From positions 34,348,001-34,412,000 of the forward strand of contig OZ024759.1 of assembly GCA_964016885.1 (NCBI GenBank): DNA of 64,000 nucleotides, written 5' to 3'. Each line of letters starts with the position of its first letter. Positions within the stretch are counted from its first letter, which is position 1. The position numbers were made by a program, and so were the translations under genes. The notes beneath the pieces were generated by a model that did not search any database, was not told where the DNA came from, and saw only the letters and a program-made list of their open reading frames with translations. Shown in pieces: positions 10,781-63,575 of the stretch. This DNA is from Eledone cirrhosa. Its lineage: Eukaryota.

Positions 10781-10786
<6 letters not shown>

Positions 10787-11020
10787 ATAATAATAAATTT
10801 GAAGACTAAATTCCAAAGTGGGCTCGATAAGGATGAATTTGTATCAAATATATAAGAACCGTAGAGAAAATATTTATTAAAATAACAGATTAAAGTTTAA
10901 GCAAAGAATCGATGCTTTCACCCTTAACGGGATCTTCTGAAACTCCCGATAAGAAGATCCCGTTAAGGGTTAAAGCAGCATTTCTTTGCTTAAACTTTAA
11001 TCTGTTATTTTAATAAATAT
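10781..11020 (-). mobile_element. HHR-bearing element family C with inverted arm, in (TA)n
   Basis: Inverted arms ~10870-10938 / 10952-11020; tail AGTAATAATAATAAATTTGAAGACTAAA recurs at 19370-19510 and 47398-47465; partial copy 14965-15050. Confidence 0.75.
10894..10944 (-). ncRNA. Type I hammerhead-like motif, U4A core variant (family C)
   Basis: Minus strand AGTTT CAGAAGA TCCC-gttaa-GGGT GAAA GCA-tcgattctt-TGC TT AAACT. Confidence 0.65.
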
Positions 11021-11949: not shown

Positions 11950-12351
11950 AATATATATGTATATATATATATTTAAATATATATGTATATATATATATTT
12001 ATATATATATATATGTATATATATATATTTAAATATATATGTATATATATATATTTATATATATATATATATATTTTAATATATATGTATATATATATAT
12101 TTAAATATATATGTATATATATATATTTAAATATATATTTATATATATATAGGAACCTATTACCCACTCTATTACCCTAAGTATTGAGTACTTTGGTGAG
12201 TTATGGTCCACCTGGTTCCTTACCACATTTCCTTCGTTATATATATATATATATATTTATATGTATATATATATATATTTATATGTATATATATATATAT
12301 ATATATTTATATGTATATATATATATATATTTATATGTATATATATATATA

Positions 12352-12508: not shown

Positions 12509-12642
12509 ACGAAGGAAATGTGGTAAGGAACCAGGTGGACCATATATATATATATATCAATGATATTCTCACCTTCCAACAGAAATGGTCGCATTTTTTA
12601 AGGGTATGTCAATATTTATTTATAAAACTGCTCTATATTATA

Positions 12643-12703
12643 TTTTATCTGATGAAAGCACACCATAATTTAACTTGGTGTCCTTGAAATATGTATAATG
12701 AAA
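12643..12703 (+). ncRNA. Minimal type I hammerhead ribozyme (family E)
   Basis: TTTTAT CTGATGA AAG-c-ACACCA..TGGTGT-c-CTT GAAA TATGTATA ATGAAA; homologous to the arms at 28.3-28.6 kb. Confidence 0.78.
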
Positions 12704-12807
12704 TAAATATGGTTTTATAAATATAGTTTCCATTTGTTAATATATCGTATATATATATATTTATATATATAAGAATATCATTGATATATATATATATATC
12801 AATGATA

Positions 12808-12878
<71 letters not shown>

Positions 12879-12924
12879 ATGTTAACAATAGTAATAAATG
12901 GAAAATATCACTATATCATCATAT

Positions 12925-12985
12925 TTATTTTATTATATATATCTGAAGGATACTAAATTATAGTATGCTTTCATCAGATAAAATA
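12925..12985 (-). ncRNA. Degenerate family E hammerhead
   Basis: Minus strand TTTTAT CTGATGA AAGCATACT..AGTATCCTT followed by CAGAT instead of GAAAT. Confidence 0.5.
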
Positions 12986-13163
12986 CAATGTTTGATGTAT
13001 AAGATAGTGACATACACAAAATATACATATATATAAATATATATATTTATATATATATATATGGGGTGCGTATGTATGTAAAAGGTAAATCGAAATAAGA
13101 AAACAAACGAAACCGTACATGGAAGAAATATATTAGTTTGACGGTTGAAATAACAGGAAAAGA

Positions 13164-13202
13164 ATGTTAACGTTTCGGATATTTGTCCTTCATCAGAAGA
13201 TA
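13164..13202 (-). ncRNA. Minimal Penelope-type hammerhead (family H)
   Basis: Minus strand TCTT CTGATGA AGGA-caaata-TCC GAAAC GTT AACAT; palindromic ACGT stem III; more decayed relative at 10228-10263 (-). Confidence 0.68.
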
Positions 13203-14197: not shown

Positions 14198-14330
14198 TAA
14201 TTGTTTCTACTTTAGGCACAAGGCCAGCAATTACCCAGTGCATTATTGGTACTTTATTTTATCGACTCCGTAAGGATGAAAGGCAAAGTCAACCTCGGCG
14301 GGATTTGAACTCAGATCGTAAAGGGACGAT
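14198..14330 (-). mobile_element. SINE family 1, 5'-truncated
   Basis: Reverse complement of the family consensus. Confidence 0.8.
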
Positions 14331-14413
14331 ATTATATATATATAAATATATATATATATACACGCTACATATTTATGTATAGAAATATATACGCTAAATA
14401 TTTATGTGTATAT

Positions 14414-14467: not shown

Positions 14468-14522
14468 ACTGCCTGAAGAGGTCACAGCCAAAGATGGCTG
14501 TCACTGAAATATATATAGCAGT
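14468..14522 (+). ncRNA. Minimal type I hammerhead ribozyme (family D)
   Basis: Stem I ACTGC/GCAGT; CTGAAGA 14473-14479; stem II ACAGCCA-aaga-TGGCTGT; GAAA 14506-14509; palindromic ATATATAT stem III; AUA triplet; AATAAA immediately downstream. Confidence 0.85.
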
Positions 14523-14589: not shown

Positions 14590-14790
14590 ATATAGATGAG
14601 ATTCTACAGGACTAGAACTGTTTCATTCATTAGAAATCATCAGGAATCGCAGGAGATTCCTGATGATTTCTAATGAATGAAACAGTTCTAGTCCTGTAGA
14701 ATCTCATCTATATTAAAACTGTTATACTCTGCTATGTATTGAGTAAGTACCTTACTTACTGTGGTTACCTCCGATTCAACCCGGAATAAC

Positions 14791-14791
<1 letters not shown>
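14590..14791 (+). mobile_element. HHR-bearing PLE pLTR/retrozyme-like element, family A (inverted arm + direct arm + tail) in (TA)n
   Basis: Inverted repeat ~14590-14648 / 14655-14713, then a unique tail ending CCGGAATAACG; (TA)n on both sides; near-identical copy at 62121-62324. Confidence 0.8.
14653..14705 (+). ncRNA. Type I hammerhead ribozyme (family A)
   Basis: Stem I GAGATTC/GAATCTC; core CTGATGA 14660-14666; stem II TTC-taat-GAA; GAAA 14679-14682; stem III ACAG/CTGT with loop TTCTAGTC; GUA cleavage triplet ending 14698; mirror copy on - strand ~14598-14648. Confidence 0.85.
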
Positions 14792-14907: not shown

Positions 14908-14960
<53 letters not shown>

Positions 14961-15102
14961 TATATAAATTCCTAGAGCAAATATTTATTGAAATAACAGA
15001 TTAAAGTTTAAGCAAAGAATCGCTGATTCCACCCTTAACGGGATCTTATCATAAAAAAGAACCCACAGTAGATATTTTTACGTTTTATGTTCTCCCTCTT
15101 AG

Positions 15103-16282: not shown

Positions 16283-16375
16283 TCGTAGGACCCCTACGGC
16301 TGAGCTCCGGTTAGATCTAGCTGTTGAAACAGTGGGAGCTCAGCCGTCGAGGTCCTGAATTATTTCATATATATA

Positions 16376-18588: not shown

Positions 18589-18760
18589 AGAGAGTAAGCA
18601 AGTTAGATAGATAGACACAGAAAGATAGGGGACCATGATGCCACCGATGAATCTGCAGAATTAAAGATCATTCTTGAATGATTAAGTTTAATCCATGCTG
18701 TGGGTTTGTTCTCTGATCTTAATATTTGTCTTTCTCTCAAATTCTTGTCATATTCATAAT

Positions 18761-18891
18761 TGTTTCTACTGTTAGGCACAAGGCCAGCAATAACCCAGTG
18801 CATTACTGGTACTTTATTTTATCGACCCCGTAAGGATGAAAGGCAAAGTTGACCTCGGCAGGATTTGAACTCAGACTGTAAAGGGACGTAA
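18761..18891 (-). mobile_element. SINE family 1, 5'-truncated, 12-bp TSD CATATTCATAAT
   Basis: TSD at 18749-18760 and 18892-18903; empty site in the paralogous segment at ~15235-15246. Confidence 0.88.
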
Positions 18892-19195
18892 CATATTCAT
18901 AATGAAGCATTTTCTATGTTCTGCTGCATCTCAAGTTATATATATAAACATGATGACATTCATACATATATATATGTATATATTCATGGATATATATATA
19001 TGTGTGAGTGTGTATATTCATGTATAAATGTATGAATATAATCATGCATATATAGAGAGAGAGGTAGATAGATATACATCTCTCTCCCTCTTTCTCTCCC
19101 CCTCTCTCTCTCTGCTGTTCACTTCTCTCTCTCTCTCTCTATCTATCTGTATATATATATATACACACACACAGAGAGAAGTGAACAACAGAGAG

Positions 19196-19272
<77 letters not shown>

Positions 19273-19275
<3 letters not shown>

Positions 19276-19367
19276 ATTGTTTCTACTTTTGGCACAAGGC
19301 CAGCAATTACCCAGTGTATTACTGGTACTTTATTTTATCGACTCCGTAAGGATGAAAGGCAAAGTTA
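19273..19367 (-). mobile_element. SINE family 1 3' fragment
   Basis: Consensus 3' half. Confidence 0.75.
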
Positions 19368-19693
19368 TATATAGTAATAATAATAAATTTGAAGACTAAA
19401 ATCCAAAGAGGGTTCTATAAGGATAAATATATATCAAGGGTGAAATATATATTAAGGGTGAAAGCAGCGATTCTTTGCTTAAACTTTAATCTGTTATTTT
19501 AATAAATATATATATATATATAGGGAGGGTCATATTTGTGTAATAATATTGCCAGAATTAATAACAGAACACACTCACTGTTTGGTTGGTTTTCGCTTCT
19601 GTGTCTTTTATATCGGTTAATTTAATTTATTCGGTCCTCAATGTTACCATTGACTGACCAACGGTCAAAAATACAGATGCAATATAGACACAA

Positions 19694-19760
<67 letters not shown>

Positions 19761-19763
<3 letters not shown>

Positions 19764-19920
19764 CGAAGGAAAAGTACTCAATACTTAGGGTAGTAGAGTG
19801 GGTAATAGGAACGAGTGGGACCCCGACGGCTGAGCTCAAGCCGTTTCGACGGCTAATTCTGGACGGAATTAGCCGTCGAAACGGCTTGAGCTCAGCCGTC
19901 GGGGTCCTACTCGTTTCTAT
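19761..19920 (-). mobile_element. Family B element (internal deletion in tail)
   Basis: Palindromic head GACCCCGACGGCTGAGCTCAAGCCGTTTCGACGGCTAATT..; (TA)n flanks. Confidence 0.78.
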
Positions 19921-28171: not shown

Positions 28172-28173
<2 letters not shown>

Positions 28174-28604
28174 AAAGTTATATTTAAATTGTTGGGTTAC
28201 AACTAGTAAATATTTATAACTGATATAAAAGCACTCGACAAGTATTTGGAGTATATTTACGATATTAAATAAATGGAAACTATATTTATAAAACCATATC
28301 TATTTCATTATATATATTTCAGGGATATCATATTAACAATATGCTATGCCTTCCTCAGACAAAATACAATATAAACAGTTTTATAGATAAATAGATTTGA
28401 CATACCGTACAACATCGACTTGCCAATTCAACTTTTCAAATACAAGTCGATGTTGTACGGTATGTCAAATCTATTTATCTATAAAACTGTTTATATTGTA
28501 TTTTGTCTGAGGAAGGCATAGCATATTGTTAATATGATATCCCTGAAATATATATAATGAAATAGATATGGTTTTATAAATATAGTTTCCATTTATTTAA
28601 TATC

Positions 28605-28607
<3 letters not shown>
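28172..28607 (-). mobile_element. Family E HHR element with 165-bp inverted repeat, in (TA)n
   Basis: Arms 28258-28422 and 28443-28607 (reverse complements by eye), 20-nt spacer, unique tail 28172-28257, (TA)n on both sides. Confidence 0.82.
28501..28562 (+). ncRNA. Minimal type I hammerhead ribozyme (family E); mirror copy on - strand 28303-28364
   Basis: TTTTGT CTGAGGA AGG..CATATT-gtt-AATATG..CCT GAAA TATATATA ATGAAA. Confidence 0.8.
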
Positions 28608-30182: not shown

Positions 30183-30185
<3 letters not shown>

Positions 30186-30353
30186 CGAAGGAGTTGTGGT
30201 AAGGAACCAGGTGGACCATAACGCACCAGAGTACTCAATATTTAGGGTGCAGAGTGGGTAATAGAAGAAAGTGTGACCCCGACGGAAGAGCTCAAGCCGT
30301 TTCGACGGCTATTTCTGGACTTGAGTTCTGCCGTCGGGGTCATACTTTCTCCT
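30183..30353 (-). mobile_element. Family B element
   Basis: Same tail, partial inverted head, (TA)n flanks. Confidence 0.75.
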
Positions 30354-31532
30354 ATATATATATATATATTTCTCACTCTCTCACACGTGCTCTATCTCCC
30401 TGATTCTCCCTCTCTCGCCCTGACTCTGACTCTCACTCTTACTCTCTCTGTTTCTCACTCTCTCACATTATCTCTCTCTCTATCTCTCACTCATTCTCTC
30501 TCATCCTCCCTCTAACCCTCTCTTTGTTTTGCGTTTCCGTCTCTCACACTATATCTCTCTCTCTCTCTCTCTCTATCTATCTAGCTATCTATCTCTATCT
30601 CTATCTCTCTCTCTTTCTCTCTCTCACTCTACTAAAAAAGACACAATTCTGCCATATTTATAAGAACCTTGCCTCACTTAAGACAAGGTCATCAATTTGA
30701 AAGTCAGGTAAATCGACTCCTGCCTATTACTGGAGCTCTAGTTCATCAACCTTGCAATGACAAGAGAAAGGGCTTGAACTCAAATGGACGTAACTATATG
30801 ACGCAAAGCATATTAACTGATGTTCTAATGACACCTCCCTTGTAATAAGAAGGAGGAGGGGCAGGAGGAGGAGAAGGAGAAGAAGAAGGAGAAGAAGAAG
30901 AAGAAGAAGAAGAAGAAGAAGAAGGAGAAGGAGGAATATAAAATAAAGTTTGCGATATTTTTACAAATTGCCTGAAGAGAAACTAATTTTTTAAGACCTT
31001 AAATAGATGACGTTCTCTGTCTTTACGTACTGAACAAACCCAATATAATCTTGAAGCAATTTTCAATTCGATAAATTGATCACATGTCAATCGAAGCATA
31101 AGAACTTACACCACAGCATCAAAACGTCTTAACATCATCATCAGCATCATTATTATTATCAAAATTGTCATCATTACCATCGTTATCATTATCACCATAG
31201 TTGTCACCAACATCCTTATATATATATCATCATCGCCATCAGCATAAGCATCGCCGTCATCGAAATGTGCACCACCGCCATCCTCATAGCCATCATCACT
31301 ATCATTATCATCACCTTCCGTATCTTTTGTGTGTGTTGTTGTTGTTGTGTGTATAGTGTGAGAGTATCTACTCTTGTTTATTTTCCTTCAGTTTTGCTTT
31401 CTTTGATTTTCAGGTATGTACGTCCTTGCTTAGCAATGCTTATATAGCTCTCTCTCTCTCACTCTCTCTCTCACTCTCTCTCTCACTCTCTCTCTCTCAC
31501 TCTCTCTCTCACTCTCTCTCACACTCTCTCTC

Positions 31533-31688: not shown

Positions 31689-31690
<2 letters not shown>

Positions 31691-31891
31691 CGAGGGAAAA
31701 GTGGTAAGGAACCAGGTGGACCATAACGCACCAAAGTACTCAATACTTAGGGTAATAGAGTGGGTAATAGGCGTAAGTAAGACCCCGACGGCTGAGCTCA
31801 AGCCGTTTCGACGGCTAATTCTGTACTCAATTAGCCGTACAGAATTAGCCGTCGAAACGGCTTGAGCTCAGCCGTCGGGGTCTTACTTACT

Positions 31892-31895
<4 letters not shown>
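31689..31895 (-). mobile_element. Family B element with the longest retained stem II
   Basis: Minus strand ACGGCTAATT-gagtacag-AATTAGCCGTC GAAACGGC..GCCGTC GGGGTC. Confidence 0.78.
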
Positions 31896-31973
<78 letters not shown>

Positions 31974-43627: not shown

Positions 43628-43703
<76 letters not shown>

Positions 43704-44103
43704 TCTATATATAAACGTATTGAGTACGCATTCATTTAATGATAGAATGTGTGTACGCCACTTTGGTCCTTTGCGACAACCAGCAGGGCCCCTCACCCAC
43801 CACCAGGTGTTTAAATGACAGTAGACAACCTACTTCTGGAATTCAGATACTGCTTGCTGGCTGAGCTTTCCACAGACACGTGTACCCTTCACCCTTCACC
43901 TAATTCTCAGAGAGAAGATTCCCCGTGAAATAGTGTATGATGTTTACCTTTGAATTAAGGGCAAACATCCATTACGATATAAAGTCTTGGTCAATGTCAC
44001 AAAACAGAGCCGGGATTTGAACTCCCGACATTAAGATTGTGAGTCGAACGCCCTCACCACTAAAACAAGCCTTATTACACACATATACACACACACATGT
44101 ATT

Positions 44104-47355: not shown

Positions 47356-47567
47356 TATATATATGTATAGACACATATATATATATATATATATATAGTA
47401 ATAATAATAGTAATAATAATAAATTTGGAGACTAAAATCCAAAGAGGGCTCGATAAGGATAAATATATATATACATATATATATATAGACATATACATAC
47501 ATATACAGACATATGCATATAGATATATCTATACATAAATGCACTCACATATATACGTATATATATT

Positions 47568-48026: not shown

Positions 48027-48082
48027 ACTGCTATATATATTTCGATGGTAGCCATTGAATGGCTATGACCTCATCAGGCAGT
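48027..48082 (-). ncRNA. Minimal type I hammerhead ribozyme (family D)
   Basis: Minus strand ACTGC CTGATGA GGTCATAGCCATTCAATGGCTACCATC GAAA TATATATA GCAGT then AAATAAA; same stem I as 14468 copy, different but still paired stem II. Confidence 0.85.
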
Positions 48083-50152: not shown

Positions 50153-50264
50153 ACAAAGGAATTGTGGTAAGGAACTAGATGGACCATAACGCACCAGAGT
50201 ACTCAATACTTAGGGTAGTAGAGTGGGAAACGGCTTGAGCTCTGCCGTCGGGGGCATACTTTTT

Positions 50265-50270
<6 letters not shown>
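50151..50270 (-). mobile_element. Family B element, truncated
   Basis: Tail plus inverted GAAACGGCTTGAGCTCTGCCGTCGGGG; further fragments at 12150-12239 (+), 12507-12543 (-), 16285-16360, 56962-56998 (-). Confidence 0.72.
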
Positions 50271-56869: not shown

Positions 56870-57030
56870 CTAGTGATTTCGAAGCACATCCTCTTGAGCA
56901 TAGAGTGCTCAACCGGCACACCGCCTATGGATGCATCCAAGCAACCTTACTACAAATATATATAACAAAGAAAGTGTGGTAAGAAACCAGGTGGACCATA
57001 TATATATATATATAAATATATATATATATA

Positions 57031-61881: not shown

Positions 61882-61886
<5 letters not shown>

Positions 61887-62062
61887 AACAAGTAAGACCC
61901 CGACGGCTGAGCTCAAGCCGTTTCGACGGCTAATTCTGGACTCGAAACGGCTTGAGCTCAGCCGTCGGGGTCTTACTTGTTCCTATTACCCACTCTACTA
62001 CCCTAAGTATTGAGTACTTTGGTGCGTTATGGTCCACCTGGTTCCTTACCACATTTCCTTCG

Positions 62063-62065
<3 letters not shown>
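61882..62065 (+). mobile_element. Family B element: fold-back head with 3' half of a hammerhead + ~85-bp tail, in (TA)n
   Basis: GAAAC GGC-ttgagctca-GCC GTC GGGGTC; tail ending CCACATTTCCTTCGTTA; inverted head; (TA)n flanks. Confidence 0.78.
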
Positions 62066-62120
<55 letters not shown>

Positions 62121-62123
<3 letters not shown>

Positions 62124-62324
62124 TTTTAATATAGATGAGATTCTACAGGACTAGAACTGTTTCATTCATTAGAAATCATCAGGAATCATGAGATTCCTGA
62201 TGATTTCTAATGAATGAAACAGTTCTAGTCCTGTAGAATCTCATCTATATTAAAACTTTTATACTCTGCTATGTATTGAGTACCTTACTTACTGTGGTTA
62301 CCTCCGATTCAACCCGGAATAACG
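62121..62324 (+). mobile_element. Family A HHR element, second copy
   Basis: Same sequence as 14590-14791 with a different fold-back junction; (TA)n flanks. Confidence 0.8.
62188..62244 (+). ncRNA. Type I hammerhead ribozyme (family A)
   Basis: 9-bp stem I ATGAGATTC/GAATCTCAT; CTGATGA 62197-62203; GAAA 62216-62219; stem III ACAG/CTGT; GUA at 62233-62235; mirror copy on - strand. Confidence 0.87.
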
Positions 62325-62740: not shown

Positions 62741-63495
62741 ATATTTCTTTATTAGCCACAGGGGCACAAAAGAAGGGGACAAATACAAAGGGGGAAGTTT
62801 ACATACAATAAAAACGTGTAAAATGTTATCACAGATGGAATTTAAAAGTTAGTCGATTTTCCCCAATAGAGGGAGACAGTTTATATGGGTAACACAGACC
62901 CCCGAAAAAAATGTGCAACCCTCATCTCCAGGAGTACGAAGAGCTTGTACTCCTTTCCTCTCCTCCTCCTTTTCCTCAACCTACAGGCTGATATAGAGAG
63001 AAGGCCCATTCACTCGGGCCATTCTCGCCACTTTCACCCACCTTTCATAAAACTTGCTGGGGTACAGCACCTCTCTCTCCATCCTGATTCTTCTTCCAAA
63101 GTGGTATTTGAAAAAAAGAATCAGTTGTTGGCCGGAGAGAAAGGTGTCTGACCTCAGCCCTTTCAACCTTGTCCACCATACAACCTCTTTCGCCATAGCT
63201 ATCACACAAAGGAAAACCGCCTCTCCTTCGTTTTTGAAGGAGGGTGGCGGTTTGATCATGACAATGGACTCGGTGGTCAACTGGATTGGTCCCACCCGCG
63301 ACAATAGTCGTTCCACATAGCCCCACAGGTCAGTGACGCCCGGGCAGTGTATGAATGCGTGCGCGACGGTTTCTTCGTCTCGCACGCACCTCGGACAGAT
63401 CTTTTTTGCAGGGTCCCTTCCCGGGCGCCCATGTCTGTAGAGCTTGTCTCGAACTGGTAGAGCTCCTCGGTAGCACTGCCAGGCCAGGGACTTTT
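62741..63495 (-). mobile_element. 5'-truncated L1/Tx1-clade LINE (ORF2 C-terminus + 3'UTR) inserted in (GATA)n
   Basis: Zinc-finger-bearing ORF end, 3'UTR ending GTGGCTAATAAAGAAAT, (GATA)n on both sides. Confidence 0.85.
62981..63493 (-). pseudogene. Tx1/L1 ORF2 C-terminal fragment (zf-RVT-like CCHC region), open frame of 170 aa
   Basis: KSLAWQCYRGALPVRDKLYRHG..ICPRCVRDEETVAHAFIHCPGVTDLW..; CxxC..ET..H...C motif typical of L1/Tx1 ORF2. Confidence 0.85.
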
Positions 63496-63502
63496 GATAG
63501 AG

Positions 63503-63550
<48 letters not shown>

Positions 63551-63575
63551 TGTTTCATGTATTTATGAATATTGT

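What the first reader, a model, noticed from the sequence alone, without database searches (positions are those of the whole stretch)
31689..31895. Family B always breaks at or after ribozyme stem II and ends its inverted arm at the same site
Seen: copies at 19761, 30183, 31689 and 61882 keep GAAAC-GGC..GCC-GTC-GGGGTC but invert at different points within the strong stem II (ACGGCTAATT/AATTAGCCGT); the 50151 copy is more truncated. None keeps CUGANGA. The inverted arm stops at (C/T)CTAT and runs into (TA)n; 12150 shows only ATAGGAACCTAT. Inference: RT stalls at the hairpin, the cDNA snaps back and self-primes, and the end is joined by TA microhomology. This would be a readable record of how PLE inverted pLTRs form. 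Predicted missing 5' part: GACCCC-CTGANGA.
Basis: partly seen in the sequence, partly recalled or inferred. Interest (0 to 1): 0.72.

Follow-up and report, generated by a model that had tools for sequence, protein, structure and literature searches.

The report
Twin-primed Penelope stubs, not snap-back
These short mirror-image repeats in TA microsatellites are likely stubs of a Penelope-like jumping gene; in three of six each arm holds sequence the other lacks, so they likely form when two separately started DNA copies of the element's RNA are joined head to head, which would explain the inverted ends typical of this class.

Summary
The family is real: six two-armed insertions, two 3' stubs and one diverged relative, next to (TA)n. 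Both outer ends are fixed: short arm at YTAT in 6 of 6, long arm 77 nt further on in 8 of 8. No window copy has CUGANGA.

The 'strong stem II' is the inversion palindrome itself. In 3 of 6 insertions each arm holds sequence the other lacks, which a single snap-back cannot give without later deletion. Public reads show longer copies exist; their next 30 nt, similar in three organisms, form a different hairpin with no GACCCC-CUGANGA. Sister families fold outside stem II.

Best reading: two target-primed cDNAs start at two fixed RNA sites (matching the in vitro PLE result of PMC11167929), mostly run to a likely RNA 5' end in that hairpin loop, and are joined head to head. No cap-G signature was seen; the hammerhead's 5' half was not found.

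The layout is known for PLEs. The scan already reached this reading on other DNA of this genome.

The parts
31690..31828 (-). Long arm of the focal insertion (frame 1-139): half-hammerhead plus 77-nt tail; outer end at the family's 3' site
31828..31836 (+). 8-9 nt templated insert at the inversion junction (repeat of AATTAGCC); slip or abortive snap-back
31837..31896 (+). Short arm (frame 3-62), ending at CCTAT in (TA)n; shares a rare variant (GTAC) with the long arm
31854..31882 (+). Predicted 3' half of a hammerhead: GAAA, stem III with palindromic GAGCTC loop, GUC site (31874-31876), GGGGTC strand
   Evidence: low variation in reads
31734..31748 (-). AAGTA-TTGAG-TACTT hairpin about 19 nt beyond the short-arm end, shared with family A; candidate start signal
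61882..62063 (+). Insertion with short arm 61882-61943 (frame 2-62, plus one shared C) and long arm 61942-62063 (frame 18-139); each arm has unique sequence
50153..50269 (-). Insertion with non-overlapping arms: long arm frame 65-139, short arm frame 20-62
12149..12237 (+). Insertion with a 7-nt short arm (frame 56-62) and long arm from frame 58; the loop letters belong to the short arm
19763..19920 (-). Insertion; long arm frame 3-139 with an internal deletion (frame 97-131), short arm from frame 7-8
30185..30355 (-). Insertion; long arm frame 2-139, short arm frame 27-62, 2-nt junction match
12509..12544 (-). 3' stub, frame 104-139, 5' end merging with (TA)n at a native TAT
56965..57000 (-). 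3' stub with the same two ends as 12509
16285..16368 (+). Diverged subfamily copy; its right arm starts near frame 3 and ends at frame 62 in (TA)n

Best explanation
These head-to-head repeats with two fixed outer ends are likely miniature insertions of a Penelope-like element, likely made by two separately primed cDNAs that would start at two fixed RNA sites 77 nt apart and would mostly run to a probable RNA 5' end before being joined. Shown: the anatomy, the two fixed ends, arms with mutually exclusive sequence, clustering of inner ends at frame 2-8, and upstream sequence in longer copies. Inferred: the endonuclease opens both strands of a (TA)n target; one 3' end primes at the tail end (frame 139), the other at CCUAU (frame 62, 3-nt TAT match); each RT runs until the RNA ends, it meets the other primer (12152, 50153) or it drops off early; the cDNA ends are joined by 0-2 nt microhomology and filled in. 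An RNA starting in the hairpin loop would lack the CUGANGA half, so it would not self-cleave, and the stubs would never carry that core.
For: 3 of 6 insertions cannot come from a single fold-back (arm limits read by hand, shown). Outer ends are fixed: 6 of 6 short arms and 8 of 8 long ends. In sister family C the short arm passes 7-8 TAT sites after its GAAA and still ends at one site in 2 of 2 copies, so the end is not just the first microhomology. Tails are 76, 77, 88 and 86 nt in families A-D. Inner ends lie at frame 2-8 in 3 of 6 long arms (P 0.002 if uniform) and 3 of 6 short arms (P 0.02). Raw-read loss is about 6% per nt over frame 7 to 3 against about 1.3% per nt over frame 23 to 13. 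9 of 12 arms cross the GUC site and none ends there. Families A and C fold 5' of a complete hammerhead core, not in stem II. A purified PLE protein cuts and extends both strands and starts at two internal RNA sites that bound the genomic tail, without needing ribozyme cleavage (PMC11167929). Twin priming is described for L1 (PMC2912911).
Against: No cap signature: an extra C after frame 2 occurs in at most 13% of raw reads and 18% of contig depth; most go on with A. No RNA data, so the RNA start is unseen and its position is uncertain by several nt. 3 of 6 insertions also fit snap-back, and a rare variant is mirrored in both arms of 31690. In family B, CCTAT is also the first TAT after the ribozyme half. 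Two arms end at frame 18-20, the base of the native hairpin, as a stall would give. Palindromes can lose their centres after insertion, which could mimic unique arms. PMC11167929 found no sequence match between primer and start site, unlike the TAT match here. No parent ORF was found.
Confidence: 0.5

Rival explanations
1. Two separately primed cDNAs, as above, but the inner ends are set by RT pausing or RNA processing at the ribozyme's long second arm, not by the transcription start.
For: A native 10-bp bulged hairpin flanks the clustering site (read by eye from the loose ends). Two arms end at frame 18-20. No cap C is seen.
Against: Most ends lie in the loop, after the 3' strand was copied. 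Families A and C fold away from stem II.
Confidence: 0.2
2. First reader's model, a form of the self-priming hypothesis of PMC3846280: one cDNA stalls, snaps back, copies itself and joins (TA)n at the first TAT; odd copies arose by later deletion of the palindrome centre.
For: 19763, 30185 and 31690 fit it. The insert in 31690 can be read as a 7-nt run into native upstream sequence (one mismatch) plus a 4-nt fold-back. A mirrored rare variant in 31690. CCTAT is the first TAT after the half-ribozyme. Self-priming was proposed in print.
Against: Needs an extra deletion in 3 of 6 copies, one of them leaving the short arm's end exactly at the usual peak. The named stem is not native. The expected perfect fold-back product was not among the insertions or joints shown (those lists are truncated). 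Family C's fixed end skips 7-8 TAT sites.
Confidence: 0.17
3. DNA-level origin: a small fold-back DNA element, or palindromes made by break repair after simple 5'-truncated insertions.
For: TA flanks, inverted arms and no ORF in the window.
Against: Arms are unequal with variable centres, some copies are non-inverted 3' stubs, and the same build recurs in families with complete hammerheads.
Confidence: 0.05

Closest known systems
Canonical endonuclease-bearing PLE insertion structure (PMC8557442 passages; PMC3846280 passages)
   Same: Inverted 5'-truncated copy next to a direct copy, a tail at one end only, microsatellite targets.
   Different: Only about 140 nt, no ORF; tail 77 nt against 30-40 nt; arms that exclude the self-priming origin proposed in PMC3846280 in 3 of 6 copies.
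Hydra clade of PLEs (PMC8557442, section 11, Files S1 and S2)
   Same: (TA)n target; an octopus member exists; a TATTGAG hairpin lies downstream of the hammerhead in Hydra-2_Amil, as here.
   Different: No exact match to four family B motifs in the supplement; all listed Hydra hammerheads have a short stem II next to CUGANGA; clade-defining protein motifs could not be tested.
Poseidon PAc of Anolis (PMC11167929, parts 1-2 of 4 read)
   Same: Two internal RT start sites bounding the tail; both target strands extended; ribozyme cleavage not needed.
   Different: It does not treat inverted copies in the parts read; its start sites have no homology to the target, whereas the inner site here matches (TA)n by 3 nt.
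L1 twin priming (as described in PMC2912911, passages)
   Same: Second target end primes internally; cDNAs are joined at short complementarity; 50153 and 12152 have this geometry.
   Different: The internal site is fixed; arms often overlap by 36-60 nt; no poly(A) tail or readable target-site duplication.
Type I hammerheads of metazoan PLEs (PMC4209133, passages)
   Same: GAAA, A15.1-U16.1 pair, C11.1, palindromic loop 3, NUH site.
   Different: Stem III is longer; no CUGANGA or G10.1 partner within the 30 upstream letters seen.

Membership tests
EN+ Penelope-like element | ORF with telomerase-like RT and GIY-YIG endonuclease | not testable with these tools
   No such ORF in the window; no genome held
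EN+ Penelope-like element | Inverted 5'-truncated copy beside a direct copy | tested here: met
   6 of 6 two-armed insertions
EN+ Penelope-like element | Tail present at one end only | tested here: met
   77 nt; 30-40 nt in print
EN+ Penelope-like element | Hammerhead in the pLTR | tested here: inconclusive
   3' half only
EN+ Penelope-like element | Target-site duplication | not testable with these tools
   All six lie in (TA)n
Hydra clade | C-terminal EN without CCHH, DKT and RWK motifs | not testable with these tools
   No protein available
Hydra clade | (TA)n insertion preference | tested here: met
   also true of Naiads, so not diagnostic
Hydra clade | Canonical hammerhead near the 3' end | tested here: inconclusive
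   Core not seen within 30 nt upstream
Type I hammerhead ribozyme | CUGANGA core adjoining stem I and stem II | tested here: inconclusive
   Absent in window copies and in the 30 upstream letters shown; sequence further upstream unseen
Type I hammerhead ribozyme | GAAA, stem III with A15.1-U16.1, NUH site | tested here: met
   variants of 3% or less in X1 at these core sites against 13-34% in the adjacent segment
Type I hammerhead ribozyme | Stem II closed by G10.1-C11.1; stem I | tested here: inconclusive
   C11.1 and the GGGGTC strand are present; partners not found
Type I hammerhead ribozyme | Self-cleavage | not testable with these tools
   No assay; no window arm ends at the site
Type-SGC permuted hammerhead (PMC10085705) | Block order site, GAAA, CUGANGA | tested here: not met
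   GAAA precedes the site and no CUGANGA follows within the 139 nt
L1 twin-primed insertion | Internal priming with microhomology at outer and inversion junctions | tested here: met
   TAT at the outer end; 0-2 nt at junctions
L1 twin-primed insertion | L1 sequence with poly(A) 3' end | tested here: not met
   Ends at TTYGT (CTCGC in 31690) in (TA)n; works like it but is not an L1

The most novel reading that the evidence does not exclude
PLE inverted pLTRs and tails have one cause: a dimeric RT-endonuclease primes both ends of a target break at two hairpin-marked sites on an RNA that starts inside the long second arm of its own hammerhead. The promoter-made RNA cannot self-cleave and yields only head-to-head stubs, while full-length copies need read-through RNA that carries the whole ribozyme.
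Probability: 0.35. Interest if true: 0.7.

Novelty: new variant of a known kind. Interest (0 to 1): 0.45.

Why it matters
PMC8557442 names the formation of tandem and inverted structures as an open question for PLEs, and PMC3846280 proposes self-priming. These stubs are a natural test: arm overlap, fixed ends and inner-end peaks separate two-primer from fold-back models, and the in vitro system of PMC11167929 could test it directly. I found no paper proposing twin priming for PLE inversions in four searches of a library that lacks most subscription papers. The layout itself is known, the evidence here is six insertions plus truncated read summaries, and the RNA-start step is unproven.

Tried and rejected
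No genome is held, so breakpoints could not be plotted genome-wide. The repeat finder was swamped by microsatellites. Rfam: among the best 150 of 531 matches shown there was no hammerhead, almost all being microsatellite-driven miRNA hits. Two metagenome scans gave 0 hits. The native upstream motif is not in the window, so reads could not be walked further. No RNA holder listed. The read-end pile at 61935 (6232 molecules) coincides with AATT in a RAD library and was rejected as a digestion artefact (inference); a second AATT just upstream prevents counting read-through reads. Joints from frame 2-15 to frame 56-103 show asymmetric junctions but were not used as enrichment evidence: joints inside the overlap are ambiguous, frame 49-55 is hypervariable, and 117 joints were hidden. 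Two long arms ending near the internal site is not significant alone (P 0.054). Cap-C test negative. SGC permutation rejected. Sequence, near and relatives look-ups of earlier findings were empty. The protein search did not name the organism; 'octopus' comes only from earlier notes. bioRxiv 10.64898/2026.07.22.740005 (part 1 of 5 read, supplements closed) did not bear on the junctions; no tandem retrozyme layout is seen here.

Full report
Observation. The window is microsatellite-rich DNA (33% GC) with no host or PLE ORF recognisable in the ORF list. Earlier scan notes call the genome an octopus; I did not confirm this. Family B has six two-armed insertions, two 3' stubs and one diverged relative. 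I placed all arms on one frame, the reverse complement of 31690-31828: GAAA at 20-23, GUC at 40-42, CCTAT at 58-62, end at 139. Arms, long/short, read by hand and entered (which writes the 3' end as 138 for most): 12152, 58-139/56-62; 19763, 3-139/8-62; 30185, 2-139/27-62; 31690, 2-139/3-62; 50153, 65-139/20-62; 61885, 18-139/2-62. All 6 short arms end at frame 62 and all 8 long ends at 139. The diverged copy keeps both registers.

ACGGCTAATT and AATTAGCCGT are reverse complements supplied by the two arms, and both occur only in 19763 and 31690. Longer copies exist. Loose ends behind 61942 were seen in 96 and 112 contigs of run X1 (agreement 0.53 and 0.50), one contig of X5 and two of X6, coded as three organisms, with similar letters. 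The X5 contig and the X1 consensus show, by eye, a partner for frame 7-16 (10 pairs with a 3-nt bulge) around a 10-nt loop that contains frame 2. So a hairpin is native there, but not the one predicted, and no GACCCC or CUGANGA lies in the 30 letters shown. The tool shows no more, so the core may lie further up; earlier notes report hammerheads with 57-102 nt second arms in this genome (unchecked). The 3' half looks constrained: GAAA, stem III with a palindromic GAGCTC loop, and GUC vary by about 3% or less in X1 apart from one change that keeps a G-U pair (17%), while frame 49-55 varies by 13-34%. The T28-A36 pair is broken in two subfamilies.

Snap-back fails in half of the insertions. A fold-back product's second arm must be a subset of the first. 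In 12152, 50153 and 61885 each arm has sequence the other lacks. 50153 has non-overlapping arms that meet 2 nt from the short arm's outer site, the geometry of L1 twin priming (PMC2912911, passages). In 12152 the two loop letters belong to the short arm. The other three fit either model. 31690 has an 8-9 nt templated insert and a variant (G to T at the site matching 61939, not listed at 1%) mirrored in both arms; this shows a common donor but does not separate the models. Later deletion of a palindrome centre could rescue snap-back and is not excluded.

The fixed short-arm end looks like a start site. In B it is also the first TAT after the half-ribozyme, so B alone is ambiguous. In family C both copies pass 7-8 TAT sites and end at one position. 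Families A-D have tails of 76, 77, 88 and 86 nt. GTATTGAGTA occurs 8 times against 0.56 expected: 5 in B, 2 in A, 1 elsewhere. It is the best local A-B match (2 of 1000 shuffles as high), its loop starting 24-28 nt beyond the short-arm end, and it folds as a hairpin in B. A similar hairpin follows the hammerhead of Hydra-2_Amil, but that is 1 of 3 GTATTGAG hits in the supplement and a weak link. PMC11167929 (parts 1-2 of 4) shows a PLE protein, predicted to be a dimer, cutting and extending both strands from two internal RNA sites that bound the tail, with ribozyme cleavage dispensable.

Inner ends cluster. 3 of 6 long and 3 of 6 short arms end at frame 2-8 (P 0.002 and 0.02 under uniform, a post hoc window). 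In raw reads of X17, after setting aside 6232 molecules ending at the AATT site, depth falls about 1.3% per nt over frame 23-13 and about 6% per nt over frame 7-3; reads are not loci, so this is rough. RT should stall at the base of a hairpin (general knowledge), and only two arms end there (frame 18 and 20). Families A and C fold 5' of a complete core. 9 of 12 arms cross GUC and none ends there, as expected if the RNA lacks the other half. I took the idea of an RNA start from earlier notes. My test of it was partly negative: an extra C, expected from a copied cap, is in at most 13-18% of molecules. The letters around frame 2 resemble an initiator element (TCAKTY, recalled, untested).

Comparison and verdict. 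The layout is standard for PLEs (PMC8557442: passages, section 11, supplement searches and part 2). Self-priming was the published hypothesis (PMC3846280, passages). Hammerhead criteria are from PMC4209133 (passages) and PMC10085705 (passages). Four searches found no two-primer model for PLE inversions. PLE membership rests on structure only. Two primers is well supported (about 0.7 in total); run-off at the RNA start is inferred (0.5). My twin-priming reading was noted before any look-up; several earlier notes on other DNA of this genome say the same and are not independent evidence.

Noticed in passing
window 14595-14791 and 62122-62324: Family A fold-backs with a complete CTGATGA hammerhead in both arms, folding 6-9 nt 5' of the core; 76-nt tail.
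   Followed up: partly
window 28172-28605, 12558-12747, 12877-13036: Family C: complete hammerhead with a TATATA stem III; 28172 folds about 75 nt upstream of the core; short-arm type end fixed in two copies; 88-nt tail.
   Followed up: partly
window 10784-11016, 19370-19505, 14960-15060, 47398-47462: Family D fold-backs with an 86-nt tail; a possible variant hammerhead core (CAGAAGA) before a short hairpin and GAAA, read by eye.
   Followed up: partly
window 13169-13196 (-), 14473-14513 (+), 48036-48077 (-): Further hammerhead-like motifs; two have a stem II with a 2x2 internal loop and a TATATA stem III.
   Followed up: no
window 12509-12544 and 56965-57000: Two 36-nt 3' stubs share the same 5' end at a native TAT that merges with (TA)n, so TA microhomology may join 5' ends of non-inverted copies.
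   Followed up: partly
window 43703-43740: An otherwise unrelated repeat next to (TA)n carries the same GTA-TTGAG-TAC hairpin.
   Followed up: no
window 62981-63562 (-): 193-aa frame matching proteins with PF13966 (RT zinc-binding domain); likely a non-LTR retrotransposon fragment.
   Followed up: partly
window 14200-14332, about 18760-18900, 19273-19365: Three copies of a roughly 130-nt SINE-like repeat.
   Followed up: no
reads laid on window 61891-61950: At least three subfamilies of B; one replaces frame 3-11 but keeps the GAAA, GAGCTC loop and GUC.
   Followed up: partly
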